From Ignavibacteria bacterium (lineage in GTDB: Bacteria; Bacteroidota; Ignavibacteria; Tepidaquicellales; Tepidaquicellaceae): DNA of 64,000 nucleotides. Shown here one piece after another: positions 820-3,141 of this stretch (position 1 is its first letter; each line of letters starts with the position of its first letter). Under the pieces are notes generated by a model. It was not told the origin of the DNA. It saw only the letters and a list, made by a program, of their open reading frames with translations, and made no database searches. The stretch spans positions 78,400 to 142,399 of the forward strand of contig JADJYU010000010.1 in assembly GCA_016719565.1 (NCBI GenBank), read 5' to 3'. The translations under genes and the position numbers were made by a program.

Positions 820-978
820 ATTTTTGAAATTAGATCATTCAGTTTACCGCAAAGAAAATTTACTTTCCTGAAAAGACTATTAATTTTATTTATTAAACAT
901 CAGGCTTTCGAAAGAAGATATTTAACTCCCGGGAAAAGAAATTAAACTTTAAAGTGAAGACACAAAACATCCGGGAAA

Positions 979-1314
979 AGACATTTGGCTTTAAATCAGA
1001 GACATTCGGCTTTCAAAAATAGACATTCAGCTTTGAAAAAAAGACATGCGGCTTTCAAAAAGAGACTTTCAGCTTTTAATCGGAGACTTTTGGATTTCAA
1101 TAAGAGTCACGCTGCTTTCAACAAGAGACATGCGGCTTTCAATCAGAGACTTTTGGTTTTCGTCAGGAGACTTTTGGCTTTCGGTAAGAGATTTTTGGTT
1201 TTCGTCAGGAGACTTTTGGCTTTCAAAAAGAGACTTTTGGCTGTCAAAAATAGACATGCGGCATTCAAAAATAGACATTCGGCAGTCGTCAGAAGACACG
1301 AAGCAGCCGGAAAA
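979..1314. repeat. Tandem array A: 16 units of exactly 21 bp, no indels
   Basis: Units start at 979, 1000, 1021 ... 1294. Consensus AGACATGCGGCTTTCAAAAAG, with an AGACTTTTGGYTTTC variant. Degenerate in-phase units (AGACA/AGAAA/AGATA starts) continue upstream to about 916. Confidence 0.9.
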
Positions 1315-1446
1315 TGAGTTTCGGAAGTGACGAAACAAATAAATTCAATTGAGAAATCGTTATTGTAAGTGAAGAAAACATTGTCTTAAGTTGAGAAATC
1401 GTTGCGTTAGTGGAGAATGAGTCTACAAACAGTTCATAAAAAGTGT

Positions 1447-1656
1447 ACAGCAGTTCAGATAAAGGCTGCAGTGGTTCCGAAACAGGCTGCGGTGGTTGAG
1501 AAGAAGTTCGCACAGTTCCGAAACAGGTTGCGGTGATTGAGAACGATACCGCTACAGTACCTAAACACAGTGCTGCGGTCGATAAACAGGTCGCTGCGGT
1601 CGATAAACAGGTCGTTGCGGTCAATAAACAGGACACTGCGGTCGATAAATGCGGTG
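1447..1656. repeat. Tandem array B: about 10 units of 21 bp (different family, partly 42-bp super-period)
   Basis: CTGCGGTCGATAAACAGGTCG occurs twice exactly (1573, 1594), flanked by diverged copies. Upstream units alternate GTTCCGAAACAGG and TTGAGAA types. TTGAGAAATCGTT also occurs at 1349 and 1391 (42 bp apart) in the linker. Confidence 0.85.
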
Positions 1657-1803
1657 AAAATTTTTACTTTAAAACTTAAAACTGCAAATATGGGTTGTTT
1701 TTCGATATTTCGGAAAAATAATTCCGCAGACGGTGAAGTCAATTATCAATTATTAATGATCAATGATCAATATAATTTAAAAAGTTTGGACTTTACAGTA
1801 AAT

Positions 1804-1947
1804 TCACTTCACCAGCGACAACTTCTTTGTCTGATTAAAGTTATCCGCCGAGAGCTTGTAGAAATATATACCGCTTGCAAGTCCGCTGCCGTCAAATACT
1901 GCTTTATAATATCCAGCTTCCCTGTATTCATTTACAAGCGTCTTGAT
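1804..1947 (-). pseudogene. Remnant of a T9SS C-terminal sorting domain (3' end of a lost cargo gene)
   Basis: The reverse strand translates as IKTLVNEYREAGYYKAVFDGSGLASGIYFYKLSADNFNQTKKLSLVK*. There is no upstream ORF. The fragment abuts the REP hairpin at 1951. Confidence 0.7.
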
Positions 1948-1950
1948 TTA

Positions 1951-1991
1951 CCCCCGTCAGAGTCTCCGGTGCTCTACCGGGACTCTGACGG
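1951..1991. repeat. REP-like palindromic hairpin, copy 1
   Basis: cccCCGTCAGAGTCtccggtgctctaccggGACTCTGACGG: 11-bp perfect stem plus inner CCGG pairing. Confidence 0.85.
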
Positions 1992-2142
1992 ATAGCTTAG
2001 CCAGTTGAAATTACAGATCGTAAATATTAATTTCCTCTGACGATTTAAGAGGAGGATTTTATGGCTACAAGAATTAGAGATTTAGTTCTGAGTCGGTGTT
2101 GCGGGCGGATCGTAAATACCGGCGAATTAAGAGGAGGATTTT

Positions 2143-2690
2143 ATGGCTACAAGAGTTAGAGATTTTATTCCTGAAAGAATTTATTTTATCACATATACCA
2201 TATACAAATGGAAAAGTGTTTTTACAGAGGAAAAATATTTTAATCTGATTTACAAATGGTTCGACTATATGAAAAAATCATTATAGTAACAAAATCCATG
2301 GATATGTTATCATGCCCAATCATCTTCATTTATTGTTGTACATTTCACACTATTCGCCTGATGTATCCAAATTAATACAAAATGCCAAAAGATTTCAGGC
2401 TTATGAAATAGTTGATTTTCTTGAAGAAGATAATAGAAAAGATTTGCTAAAAATATTTTCAGAAGCTGCAGAGATTCAAAAAGGAGCAAAGCATAAAGTT
2501 TTTAAAGACAGGTTTGATTCAAAAGAAATGGTGAATTCAGATCTATACAGGGAAAAATTAAATTACATTCATAATAATCCATGCACGCGGGAAGTGGAGA
2601 CTTGCAGAAAAGCCGGAGGACTATAAACATTCAAGCGCTTCAAATTATATAATTGGAAATGGAGTATATGATGTCGAGTTAGTTTATTAG
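2143..2690 (+). pseudogene. REP-associated tyrosine transposase (RAYT / IS200-like Y1 HUH transposase), two frameshifts
   Basis: GAGGAGG RBS and ATG at 2143 (MATRVRDFIPERIYFITYT...). The frame breaks at the A-run near 2272-2286. HUH motif in VIMPNHLHLLL and catalytic Tyr motif NYIHNNP. A second frame break at about 2586-2596; the restored frame reads WRLAEKPEDYKHSSASNY... to the TAG at 2690. Confidence 0.75.
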
Positions 2691-2708
2691 TTGAAAGTTC
2701 GGAGCTTA

Positions 2709-2750
2709 CCGTCAGAGTCCCGGAAAGAGCGCCGGAGACTCTGACGGGGG
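2709..2750. repeat. REP-like palindromic hairpin, copy 2 (inverted relative to copy 1)
   Basis: CCGTCAGAGTCccggaaagagcgccggaGACTCTGACGGggg. Its reverse complement matches copy 1 except in the loop. Confidence 0.85.
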
Positions 2751-2910
2751 TTTAAAAAAATTAAATTACATTCATAATAATCCATGCACTCCGAGATGGA
2801 GACTTGCAGAAAAGCCGGAGGACTATAAACATTCAAGCGCTTCAAATTATATAATTGGAAATGGAGTATATGATGTCGAGTTAGTTTATTAGTTGAAAGT
2901 TCGGAGCTTA

Positions 2911-2952
2911 CCGTCAGAGTCCCGGAAAGAGCGCCGGAGACTCTGACGGGGG
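2911..2952. repeat. REP-like palindromic hairpin, copy 3 (same orientation as copy 2)
   Basis: Same sequence as copy 2; part of the ~202-bp tandem duplication. Confidence 0.85.
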
Positions 2953-2956
2953 TTTA

Positions 2957-3141
2957 AAGTTTAAATATACAGGAAAAGAAAGAGATAAGGAGAGCTTATA
3001 TGATTATTTCGGTGCGAGGTATTATGATGCGAGGATAGGAAGGTGGGGAACGATAGTCCGTTAATGGAAAAGCATTTTGATTTTAATCCTTACACAATCT
3101 CCCGATTGGGTACGCAGAGTTACGAATCAGGGGATTCTTAA
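2957..3141 (+). pseudogene. Remnant of an RHS-repeat-associated core domain (frameshifted fragment)
   Basis: KFKYTGKERDKESLYDYFGARYYDARIGRWGTI matches the conserved RHS/YD core motif (FTGKE.D...LYY.GARYYDP..GRW.S.DP). After a frame change near 3056-3062 it continues SPLMEKHFDFNPYT. There is no upstream RHS ORF. Confidence 0.6.

What the first reader, a model, noticed from the sequence alone, without database searches (positions are those of the whole stretch)
1951..2958. REPtron-like locus: HUH/Y1 RAYT pseudogene bracketed by inverted REP hairpins, with both gene ends tandemly duplicated
- Hairpins: a 41-nt GC-rich palindrome (CCGTCAGAGTC..GACTCTGACGG, 11-bp stem) occurs three times and, as far as I can see, nowhere else in the window. 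One copy lies upstream of the transposase-like gene; two lie downstream in the opposite orientation. This is the arrangement described for REP-associated tyrosine transposases.
- Gene: it has the HUH motif (PNHLHLLL) and the Tyr motif (NYIHNNP), but it is broken by a frameshift at an A-run (~2272-2286) and by a second one at ~2586-2596.
- Duplicated 3' end: the 3' ~202 bp plus hairpin is duplicated in tandem (2554-2757 and 2756-2958). The truncated downstream copy keeps the intact reading frame (NPCTPRWRLAEKPEDYKHSSASNY...) that the full-length copy has lost.
- Duplicated 5' end: the RBS and first codons are also duplicated (2016-2084 versus 2108-2166).

To my knowledge REP/RAYT systems have been characterised mainly in Proteobacteria, so a decaying one in a T9SS-bearing low-GC lineage deserves a look.
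Basis: partly seen in the sequence, partly recalled or inferred. Interest (0 to 1): 0.6.

Follow-up and report, generated by a model that had tools for sequence, protein, structure and literature searches.

The report
Decayed hairpin-flanked REP transposase gene
This is a broken copy of a hairpin-cutting "REP transposase" (RAYT) gene in a wastewater Ignavibacteria genome. An intact twin and about 65 scattered hairpins lie elsewhere in the genome, so it is a known kind of element, and its duplicated ends are a habit shared across its family.

Summary
Window 1947-2958 holds a HUH/Tyr gene with two frameshifts. One hairpin lies upstream and two inverted copies lie downstream. A 202-bp tandem duplication covers the 3' end and a decayed duplication covers the 5' end.

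- An intact 181-aa paralog (98% identical DNA) lies on contig C3. It passes NCBIfam's REP-associated tyrosine transposase model (83 bits, cut-off 80) and fails the IS200 model (20 bits, cut-off 55).
- Its predicted fold matches E. coli TnpAREP (4ER8) best.
- About 65 diverged copies of the hairpin are dispersed. 63 of 65 lie outside long ORFs, the stem covaries, and adjacent pairs are mostly convergent, REPIN-like doublets.
- Strong copies occur mainly in relatives that carry the cognate gene.

Motifs and length fit TnpAY1 subclass 2.6 (RAYT group 5), already described from Bacteroidetes. This is therefore a new member of a known kind, not a first outside Proteobacteria.

- The hairpin-to-hairpin unit exists as two near-identical copies in unrelated flanks, so it moved as a unit.
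- Tandem duplications that end 8-10 nt outside the terminal hairpin recur in at least 15 related loci. The same 3' duplication is present in an independent sister assembly.

The parts
1804..1949 (-). Stump of a T9SS C-terminal sorting domain gene (last 48 codons plus stop), cut off exactly at the left end of the element
   Evidence: Read from the sequence...IKTLVNEYREAGYYKAVFDGSGLASGIYFYKLSADNFNQTKKLSLVK*. It is 91-95% identical in DNA to the ends of paralogs on C8 and C16.
1947..1997 (+). Left end (LE): T-rich terminus, CCCCC foot, then a hairpin (11-bp stem, bulged T, 4-bp inner stem, 7-nt loop) at 1954-1991
   Evidence: The boundary is set by where similarity to the C3 copy stops. CM R1 scores it 69 bits.
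1998..2084 (+). First copy of the 5' leader, RBS and first 8 codons (ATG at 2061)
   Evidence: the repeat finder D2; alignment.
2085..2122 (+). Degraded second left hairpin (AGTTCTGAGTC..GGTG..) and shortened leader; the junction of the 5' tandem duplication
   Evidence: Alignment to the intact copy and to G002, where this second LE is intact and the first one is degraded.
2143..2690 (+). RAYT pseudogene (HUH motif NHLH encoded at about 2318-2329; Tyr motif YIHNNP at about 2568-2585)
   Evidence: ORFs. 98.1% DNA identity to the intact 181-aa paralog over 633 nt. That paralog passes NF047646.
2272..2277 (+). Frameshift 1: A6 instead of A5; shared with sister genome G002
2587..2594 (+). Frameshift 2: cluster of substitutions plus one extra base; found only in this genome
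2703..2756 (+). Right end copy 1 (RE1): inverted hairpin at 2709-2747, GGGGG foot, TTTAA terminus
2757..2958 (+). Tandem second copy of the last 202 bp: gene 3' fragment with the unmutated frame, stop at 2890-2892, and RE2 hairpin at 2911-2949
   Evidence: (99.5% to the C3 copy). The same duplication is in G002.
2959..3064 (+). Stump of an RHS-repeat core (..KYTGKERDKESLYDYFGARYYDARIGRWGTIVR*) that starts exactly at the right end of the element
   Evidence: Read from the sequence. 82-83% identical to RHS loci on C8.
3095..3125 (.). Degraded hairpin of a second REP family (consensus CGTTCCCAATC-TCCC-GATTGGGAACG), which belongs to another RAYT paralog on C18

Best explanation
The locus is a dead copy of a REPtron: a gene for a REP-associated tyrosine transposase (RAYT/TnpAREP; HUH single-tyrosine nuclease, TnpAY1 subclass 2.6 / RAYT group 5) together with its cognate hairpins.

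Shown:
- The gene is broken by two frameshifts.
- An intact, 98% identical copy sits on contig C3 between one left and one right hairpin.
- The two copies share nothing beyond TTTA-CCCCC...GGGGG-TTTAA, so the hairpin-to-hairpin unit was copied or moved as a whole, with no target duplication.
- The hairpin, with a C-rich 5' foot and a covarying 11+4-bp stem, is a dispersed extragenic repeat of about 65 copies. Adjacent copies are mostly convergent doublets with the feet outward, which is the same geometry as around the gene.
- Strong copies occur mainly in relatives that carry the cognate gene.

Inferred from the chemistry established for E. coli, Stenotrophomonas and Marinomonas TnpAREP and for IS608:
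- The enzyme from the intact copy binds the folded hairpin on single-stranded DNA at the replication fork.
- It cuts a few bases outside the foot and stays linked to the 5' end through its tyrosine.
- It then rejoins that end to a 3'-OH. This would spread hairpins and doublets, and occasionally the whole unit.
- The window copy can now only be a substrate in trans.

The duplicated gene ends are best read as by-products of that nicking and rejoining, or of replication restart at the nick. In this locus, and in at least 15 related loci, the duplicated block ends 8-10 nt outside the terminal hairpin, while the inner breakpoint varies. This last step is the least certain.
For: Protein:
- NF047646 83.2 bits (cut-off 80) against IS200 19.9 bits (cut-off 55).
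- The AlphaFold model has pLDDT 94. Its best PDB match is 4ER8, TnpAREP bound to a REP hairpin: E = 1e-9, TM 0.67/0.73 over all 181 columns. IS200/IS605 TnpAs reach E of about 1e-5 and TM of about 0.48.
- H60, H62 and Y141 are invariant in 34 homologs.
- NHLH, YIHNNP, the SS tail and the 181-aa length fit subclass 2.6 (PMC6006769).

Hairpins:
- The exact hairpin occurs only at the two gene loci.
- 65 nhmmer hits and 66 CM hits in the genome.
- 63 of 65 lie outside stop-to-stop ORFs of at least 150 aa, which cover 82% of the genome. Adjacent orientation pairs are +- 15, ++ 6, -+ 4 and -- 1.
- 96.3% of cells are paired, 7 of 14 pairs change on both sides, and 0 of 500 shuffles reach this.

Co-occurrence:
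- All five genomes with a homolog or fragment at least 60% identical (G000, G002, G009, G012, G019) have matches at E <= 1e-8. Only two of the other 36 do (G001, G003, same genus).
- Orthologs in other genera keep the inverted hairpins with compensated stems.
- REP doublet presence/absence differs between G000 and its sister G002 at two collinear sites.

Unit mobility: similarity between the two copies stops at the termini.

Duplications:
- The same 3' duplication and the same A-run frameshift are in the independent assembly G002.
- End-anchored duplications are found in L036, L006, L065, L077, L091, L105, L106, L061 (3' end) and L104, L110, L112, L089, L098, L106, L070 (5' end).
Against: - No biochemistry exists for this subclass. 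The cleavage site and strand specificity are inferred.
- Pfam Y1_Tnp is below its threshold (18.3 against 23).
- The conserved W of the 'WQ' motif is F in this clade, and there is no GT[AG]G foot.
- Two 98% identical copies, many homologs on contigs of about 1 kb, a patchy distribution among relatives and 59-61% identical homologs in CPR phyla look more like an insertion sequence than a vertically inherited, single-copy RAYT.
- The copy number of about 65 is modest.
- Some REP copies sit inside larger duplicated segments, so not every copy reflects transposition.
- The duplication junctions show 0-4 nt of microhomology, which fits enzyme-independent replication slippage equally well.
- Reads could not be examined.
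Confidence: 0.85

Rival explanations
1. It is an autonomous insertion sequence of the IS200/IS605 kind (transposase plus ends) that merely has hairpin ends, and the scattered hairpins are its decayed solo ends or MITEs. It is not a domesticated RAYT system.
For: - Two 98% identical copies are bounded exactly by the termini in unrelated flanks, with no target duplication.
- Many homologs sit on contigs of about 1 kb, as multi-copy elements do.
- The distribution among relatives is patchy.
- The closest non-Ignavibacteria homologs are in CPR phyla at 59-61% identity, closer than Bacteroidota at 38-48%. This suggests horizontal transfer.
Against: - The IS200 model scores 19.9 bits against a cut-off of 55, while the RAYT model passes.
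- The Tyr motif is YIHNNP, not Y...Q.
- The ends are inverted copies of one hairpin, whereas IS200/IS605 ends are not inverted repeats and act on one strand (PMC8266576).
- There is only one intact and one dead copy against about 60 gene-less hairpins, which have their own subtypes and doublet organisation.
- The fold is closest to TnpAREP.
- The two readings overlap. A REPtron that still moves as a unit fits both.
Confidence: 0.12
2. The end duplications have nothing to do with the enzyme. GC-rich hairpins stall replication, and slipped or microhomology-mediated template switching duplicates adjacent DNA.
For: - Junctions carry 0-4 nt of microhomology (AAA, AAG, AG, T runs).
- In the window, the sequence after the right end (AAAGTTTAAATATAC) resembles the inner breakpoint (AAAAATTAAATTAC).
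- Tandem reiteration of REPs with flanking DNA is widespread (PMC3733652).
Against: - The outer boundary falls at a constant 8-10 nt outside the hairpin foot in most of the 17 locus ends printed (9 at the 3' end, 8 at the 5' end). In this genome that point is the terminus defined independently by comparing the two copies.
- Stalling at the stem would not be expected to give so constant an offset on the far side of the hairpin.
- This is an argument, not a test.
Confidence: 0.3
3. Both duplications come from one event: a second copy of the element inserted into the first after codon 8, and a later deletion next to the inner right end removed about 385 bp of the outer copy.
For: - This explains why both junctions coincide with element termini: LE after ..AGAGATTT, and RE followed by an inner gene site.
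- The outer 5' fragment differs from the inner copy at a few bases.
Against: - Related loci show 5'-only or 3'-only duplications, three right ends with two left ends (L006), and units of 68-384 bp. Simple end-anchored tandem duplication explains these with fewer steps.
Confidence: 0.1
4. The tandem duplications and the A-run frameshift are assembly or long-read homopolymer artefacts.
For: - The genome is a MAG.
- The sister assemblies carry names typical of long-read assemblies (tig000...).
- A5/A6 is a homopolymer difference.
- Reads could not be checked.
Against: - The same 202-bp duplication and the same A6 are in an independent MAG, with its own differences.
- The two 3' copies differ by a 9-base lesion, and the 5' copies are degraded differently in the two genomes, so they are not collapsed or expanded repeats.
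- The C3 copy in the same assembly has A5.
- Comparable duplications, 87-99% identical between copies, occur in many unrelated assemblies.
Confidence: 0.05

Closest known systems
TnpAY1 subclass 2.6 (Quentin, Siguier, Chandler and Fichant 2018, PMC6006769), equal to RAYT group 5 (Bertels, Gallie and Rainey 2017, PMC5581495)
   Same: - Length of about 179 aa (181 here), HuH NH[LIV]H (NHLH), Tyr motif YIH[QN]NP (YIHNNP), and an SS motif in the tail (HSSAS).
- An extra segment between helix C and strand 4.
- Genes flanked by atypical hairpins without a GT[AG]G foot, with copies elsewhere in the genome.
- Flanking-repeat abundance in the tens.
- The host belongs to the Bacteroidetes/Chlorobi/Ignavibacteria group.
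   Different: - The host class Ignavibacteria does not appear in the text of that survey (0 occurrences of 'Ignavibacteri').
- The conserved W of 'WQ' is F here.
- There are two near-identical copies in one genome, whereas the mean paralog identity in the subclass is about 41%.
- I assigned the subclass from published motifs, not by placing the protein in the authors' tree.
E. coli REPtron: TnpAREP (RayT/YafM, PDB 4ER8) with REP/BIME sequences (PMC3333891, PMC3479197, PMC8266576)
   Same: - Same fold (best structural match).
- HUH plus a single Tyr.
- The gene is bracketed by inverted hairpins with a conserved 5' foot, and the hairpins are dispersed, extragenic and often in inverted pairs.
   Different: - 17% sequence identity.
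- The foot is C-rich (TTTA-CCCCC), not GTAG.
- The stem is regular apart from one bulged T.
- There are tens of copies, not hundreds.
- There is no biochemical evidence for this subclass.
REPINs of Pseudomonas fluorescens SBW25 (Bertels and Rainey 2011, PMC3116915)
   Same: - Two hairpins in inverted orientation separated by a short spacer are the commonest adjacent arrangement (15 of 26 adjacent pairs).
- The genome holds several RAYT paralogs, each with its own hairpin family.
   Different: - The two arms are different subtypes (stems CGTCAGAGTC and CGGCGGAGTC), so the doublet is an imperfect long hairpin.
- The population is small.
- Excision or replication of doublets has not been observed. 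Only two presence/absence differences from a sister genome were seen.
IS200/IS605 insertion sequences (IS608, ISDra2)
   Same: - HUH/Y1 fold.
- Hairpin ends.
- No target duplication.
- The whole unit exists as two copies.
   Different: - The IS200 HMM fails.
- The Tyr motif lacks the Q.
- The ends are inverted copies of one hairpin.
- There is no tnpB.
- Gene-less hairpins far outnumber gene copies.
REP clusters reiterated in tandem with flanking DNA, and TIRtrons (Di Nocera, De Gregorio and Rocco 2013, PMC3733652)
   Same: - Hairpins are repeated in tandem together with variable lengths of adjacent DNA.
- Repeats overlap the 5' or 3' end of the transposase gene.
   Different: - Here the reiterated adjacent DNA is the transposase gene's own ends.
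- The block boundary sits at a constant offset from the hairpin foot.
- The CGTC in this hairpin is paired inside the stem, so it is not the unpaired CGTC tag of that paper.

Membership tests
RAYT / TnpAREP (REP-associated tyrosine transposase) | Curated family HMM above its cut-off | tested here: met
   NF047646 scores 83.2 bits against a cut-off of 80 for the intact paralog. Pfam Y1_Tnp scores only 18.3 against 23 on the repaired window protein.
RAYT / TnpAREP (REP-associated tyrosine transposase) | HUH motif and a single catalytic Tyr in a Y..NP-type motif | tested here: met
   NHLH and YIHNNP are present. H60, H62 and Y141 are invariant in 34 homologs. They align to the EHMH and YIYINP motifs of 4ER8.
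RAYT / TnpAREP (REP-associated tyrosine transposase) | Fold of TnpAREP rather than IS200 TnpA | tested here: met
   Foldseek gives 4ER8 E = 1e-9, TM 0.67/0.73, full length. IS200/IS605 TnpAs reach E of about 1e-5 and TM of about 0.48.
RAYT / TnpAREP (REP-associated tyrosine transposase) | Gene flanked by its hairpins in inverted orientation | tested here: met
   Seen in the window, the C3 copy, and orthologs in G002, G009, G012 and L006.
RAYT / TnpAREP (REP-associated tyrosine transposase) | The same hairpin is repeated, extragenic and palindromic across the genome | tested here: met
   There are 65-66 copies, and 63 of 65 lie outside long ORFs. The stem covaries.
RAYT / TnpAREP (REP-associated tyrosine transposase) | Conserved GT[AG]G foot 5' of the hairpin | tested here: not met
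   The foot is T-rich followed by CCCCC. The absence of GT[AG]G is itself the published property of subclass 2.6.
RAYT / TnpAREP (REP-associated tyrosine transposase) | Single copy per genome, with mainly vertical inheritance | tested here: inconclusive
   There is one intact copy plus one dead copy at 98% identity. The cognate gene is in 5 of 41 relatives, and CPR homologs are at 59-61%.
RAYT / TnpAREP (REP-associated tyrosine transposase) | Strand-specific binding and cleavage of the folded hairpin | not testable with these tools
   Needs purified protein and a cleavage/strand-transfer assay.
TnpAY1 subclass 2.6 / RAYT group 5 | About 179 aa; NH[LIV]H; YIH[QN]NP; SS tail motif; insertion between helix C and strand 4 | tested here: met
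   The protein has 181 aa, NHLH, YIHNNP and HSSAS, with extra helices at 74-108 in the model.
TnpAY1 subclass 2.6 / RAYT group 5 | 'WQ' motif | tested here: not met
   The aligned position reads VFKDRFDS, and F120 is invariant in this clade.
TnpAY1 subclass 2.6 / RAYT group 5 | Placement inside the authors' phylogenetic subclass | not tested
   The reference sequences of that study were not fetched.
IS200/IS605 | TnpA HMM above its cut-off and a Y...Q motif | tested here: not met
   NF033573 scores 19.9 against 55. The motif is YIHNNP.
IS200/IS605 | Different left and right subterminal hairpins on one strand, not inverted repeats | tested here: not met
   LE and RE are 48-nt inverted copies, about 90-96% complementary.
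REPIN | Two REPs in inverted orientation with a short spacer as the repeated unit | tested here: met
   15 of 26 adjacent pairs are convergent with the feet outward. A 129-nt block containing a doublet is present in G000 and absent in G002.

The most novel reading that the evidence does not exclude
The end-anchored tandem duplications are direct footprints of RAYT catalysis.
- The enzyme nicks 8-10 nt outside the hairpin foot and stays linked to the 5' end.
- A nearby nascent 3'-OH at the replication fork is joined to that end.
- The DNA between the fork and the hairpin is thereby duplicated.

If so, the junctions map the otherwise unknown cleavage site of group-5 RAYTs. They would also show how hairpin arrays next to RAYT genes, and REP clusters in general, grow.
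Probability: 0.3. Interest if true: 0.6.

Novelty: new member of a known kind. Interest (0 to 1): 0.4.

Why it matters
- It documents a working-looking REP/RAYT system in Ignavibacteria: an intact gene, a dead copy, about 65 cognate hairpins, and at least two further paralogs with their own hairpin arrays. All biochemistry so far comes from Proteobacteria.
- It corrects the idea that such systems are new outside Proteobacteria.
- The comparison across 81 related loci gives a concrete, testable prediction for a subclass with no experimental data: cleavage 8-10 nt outside a C-rich foot.
- It points to a simple route by which hairpin arrays and adjacent deletions arise.
- For annotation, it explains why this intergenic region is a rearrangement hotspot with gene stumps, and why such genes often sit on short contigs.

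Tried and rejected
- Exact look-ups of the 104-aa fragment and of the intact protein found nothing.
- Pfam alone would have left the call undecided, at 18.3 bits against 23.
- I considered that the clustered hairpins on C3:728889-730204 might be a CRISPR array. I rejected this because spacings are 53-147 bp, orientations are mixed and two hairpin types alternate.
- I considered intrinsic terminators and rejected them, because no T run follows the stem on either strand.
- I considered the CGTC-tagged REPs of Di Nocera et al. and rejected them, because CGTC here is paired inside the stem and the second subtype has CGGC.
- I suspected that the window locus was derived from the C3 locus, because both lie near a T9SS-CTD gene and RHS pieces. 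I rejected this because the stumps are closest to paralogs on C8 and C16 and these families are highly multi-copy.
- I looked for an empty site. G003, in the same genus, joins the two neighbouring genes with about 0.5 kb of unrelated spacer. It therefore lacks the whole 2.4-kb block rather than showing a clean insertion site.
- Twelve REP sites of G000 were compared with G002. Only two were collinear enough to score, and both differ by a doublet.
- My first loose regular expression for the hairpin core was too unspecific (281 hits against 169 in the control). I replaced it with profile and covariance-model searches.
Full report
**What is in the sequence**

Window 1947-2958 contains three copies of one GC-rich hairpin. 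Its structure is an 11-bp stem CCGTCAGAGTC/GACTCTGACGG, a bulged T, a 4-bp inner stem and a 7-8-nt loop. The arm occurs six times exactly, against 0.31 expected by chance. The copy at 1954-1991 is inverted relative to those at 2709-2747 and 2911-2949.

Between them lies a HUH/Tyr gene in pieces (ORFs 2143-2286 and 2312-2626). The last 202 bp, including the hairpin, are repeated head to tail (2554-2756 and 2757-2958). The ribosome-binding site plus the first eight codons are repeated 82 bp apart.

**An intact twin defines the element**

The exact hairpin occurs at only one other place in the 4.77-Mb assembly, C3:562917-563641. There, one left and one right hairpin bracket an uninterrupted 181-aa gene. 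The window copy is 98.1% identical to it over 633 nt.

The three-way alignment lists the lesions of the window copy:
- an 82-bp insertion or duplication at 2041-2122;
- A6 instead of A5 at 2272-2277;
- a substitution cluster with one extra base at 2587-2594;
- the 202-bp 3' duplication.

Similarity between the two loci stops at TTTA-CCCCC on the left and GGGGG-TTTAA on the right, and the flanks are unrelated. The hairpin-to-hairpin unit of about 720 bp was therefore copied or moved as a whole, without a target duplication.

**What the protein is**
- The intact protein passes NCBIfam NF047646, REP-associated tyrosine transposase (83.2 bits, cut-off 80). It fails the IS200/IS605 model (19.9 bits, cut-off 55). 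Pfam Y1_Tnp is just below threshold.
- The only PDB sequence hit is E. coli TnpAREP.
- An AlphaFold model built on 34 homologs has pLDDT 94. Its best structural match is 4ER8, TnpAREP bound to a REP hairpin: E = 1e-9, TM 0.67/0.73 over the full length. IS200/IS605 transposases follow at E of about 1e-5.
- The length, NHLH, YIHNNP and the HSSAS tail match the published signature of TnpAY1 subclass 2.6 (RAYT group 5). That subclass was described as mostly from Bacteroidetes, with atypical flanking hairpins that lack GT[AG]G and recur in the genome (PMC6006769; PMC5581495).
- One departure: the conserved W of the 'WQ' motif is an invariant F in this clade.

**Are the hairpins REPs?**

A profile built from the gene-flanking and first dispersed copies finds 65 hits at E < 0.01, at about 25 sites. 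A covariance model finds 66.
- There are two subtypes, with stems CGTCAGAGTC and CGGCGGAGTC. They share the GAGTC core and a T-rich, CCCCC 5' foot.
- 63 of 65 lie outside stop-to-stop ORFs of at least 150 aa, although such ORFs cover 82% of the genome.
- Adjacent copies are mostly convergent with the feet outward (15 of 26 pairs). This is the REPIN geometry and is the same as around the gene.
- The stem covaries: 96.3% of cells are paired, 7 of 14 pairs change on both sides, and 0 of 500 shuffles reach this.
- Among 40 relatives, all four that carry a homolog or fragment at least 60% identical (G002, G009, G012, G019) have matches at E <= 1e-8, as does G000 itself. Only two of the other 36 do: G001 and G003, in the same genus.
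- G000, with the intact gene, has 66 copies. Its sister G002, with only the pseudogene, has 22.
- Orthologs in other genera keep the inverted hairpins with compensated inner stems.
- At two collinear sites, G000 has a doublet that G002 lacks.

**Context**

The organism is an Ignavibacteria MAG lineage from wastewater (names; note).

The genome has at least three further distant paralogs of the gene. Two of them have their own hairpin family in arrays on both sides: about 12 copies at 59-bp spacing upstream of the C18 gene, and three at 68 bp upstream of the C10:174284 gene. That second family has about 78 copies genome-wide. A degraded member lies at window 3095-3125.

The element is abutted by a T9SS sorting-domain stump on the left and an RHS-core stump on the right. 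A congener, G003, lacks the entire 2.4-kb block between the two neighbouring genes.

**The duplicated ends**

The sister genome G002 is an independent MAG and is 98.9% identical in the right flank.
- It carries the same 202-bp 3' duplication and the same A-run frameshift.
- It has an unmutated 2587-2594 region.
- It shows the complementary state of the 5' duplication: its first left hairpin is degraded and its second is intact, the reverse of the window.

The ancestor therefore had LE, leader, 8 codons, LE, leader, gene, RE, 3' 202 bp, RE. The duplications are real and older than the split.

Self-comparison of 81 related loci shows that this is a family habit.
- Tandem repeats of the gene's 3' end plus hairpin occur in other Ignavibacteria (L036, 188 bp; L006, three copies of 184-186 bp). 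They also occur in Chitinophagaceae, Cyclobacteriaceae and Leadbetterella (L065, L077, L091, L105, L106, L061).
- Repeats of the left hairpin plus the first 8-35 codons occur in L104, L110, L112 and L089. L098, L106 and L070 carry left-hairpin tandem repeats that stop just upstream of the gene start.
- In most of the junctions printed, the duplicated block ends 8-10 nt outside the hairpin foot, after a C-rich foot. The inner breakpoint varies and shows 0-4 nt of microhomology.
- In this genome that outer point is the terminus defined independently by comparing the two copies.

**How it most likely works**

Shown: the anatomy above.

Inferred from TnpAREP and IS608 chemistry (PMC8266576):
- The enzyme binds the folded hairpin on single-stranded DNA.
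- It cuts near the foot and stays linked to the 5' end.
- It can join that end to any 3'-OH.

A nascent 3' end a few dozen to a few hundred bases past the hairpin, joined to the enzyme-linked terminus, would give exactly an end-anchored tandem duplication. A nick-induced fork restart would do the same and would also give the adjacent deletions suggested by the gene stumps. Plain hairpin-induced slippage remains a serious rival, and a nested self-insertion followed by a deletion is a lesser one.

Tandem reiteration of REPs with adjacent DNA is already described (PMC3733652). Other notes of this scan report end-anchored duplications in other RAYT classes (these are leads only).

**Verdict**

The element belongs to a described subclass, so it is a new member of a known kind. 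Modest added value lies in three things:
- the first explicit anatomy of the system in Ignavibacteria;
- the evidence that the unit itself moved;
- the family-wide, terminus-anchored duplications, which predict the cleavage site of an unstudied RAYT group.

Read-level confirmation was not possible.

Noticed in passing
window 916-1656: A non-coding array of 21-bp periodic repeats lies immediately upstream of the T9SS stump. Copies at 83-86% identity are at C10:5135, C16:106568, C7:365790 and C27:6335. Its length varies between G000 and G002, and the left flank is only 90.7% identical. Another note of this scan already flags it.
   Followed up: no
window 1739-1790: A heptamer-periodic AT-rich motif (TCAATTA/TCAATGA)n lies just downstream of the T9SS-CTD stop. 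Similar stretches occur at about 70 places in the genome, often right after gene ends and a short GC hairpin.
   Followed up: partly
G000:C18:140500-143500 (L025) and G000:C10:173000-176000 (L026): Two distant RAYT paralogs (35% and 32% identity) have their own hairpin family, GTTCCCAA..TTGGGAAC. It forms tandem arrays upstream (about 12 copies at 59 bp, and 3 at 68 bp) and inverted arrays downstream. The family has about 78 copies genome-wide.
   Followed up: partly
proteins P0072, P0109, P0117 (homologs): These homologs carry in-frame insertions of 25-50 residues between residues 96 and 97, with GC-rich, palindrome-like translations (for example SPLPRDCGEA). They look like hairpins inserted inside the RAYT gene without breaking the frame, as reported for subclass 2.4.
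   Followed up: no
L030 (G003:C11) 1003-1501: In a congener, the spacer that replaces the whole 2.4-kb block holds five copies of a different small palindrome, AAACCTGACAGGTTT.
   Followed up: no
L053 1226-1775: A Bacteroidetes MAG has an internally deleted copy of its RAYT unit, with the 5' part joined directly to the 3' part, about 600 bp upstream of the full copy. This is a MITE-like derivative beside its parent.
   Followed up: no
L034 (G002:C24) about 900-1600, and L005 1848-2812: A DUF433-like/PIN-like toxin-antitoxin pair lies next to an RHS-core stump in both G000:C3 and G002:C24, but in different arrangements. The G002:C24 locus continues into a second, 88% identical copy of the window's SBBP-repeat gene.
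   Followed up: no
(homolog lists): The closest homologs outside Ignavibacteria are in CPR phyla (Parcubacteria, Falkowbacteria, Peregrinibacteria/Peribacteria) at 59-61% identity. That is closer than Bacteroidota at 38-48%, which suggests transfer between phyla.
   Followed up: no
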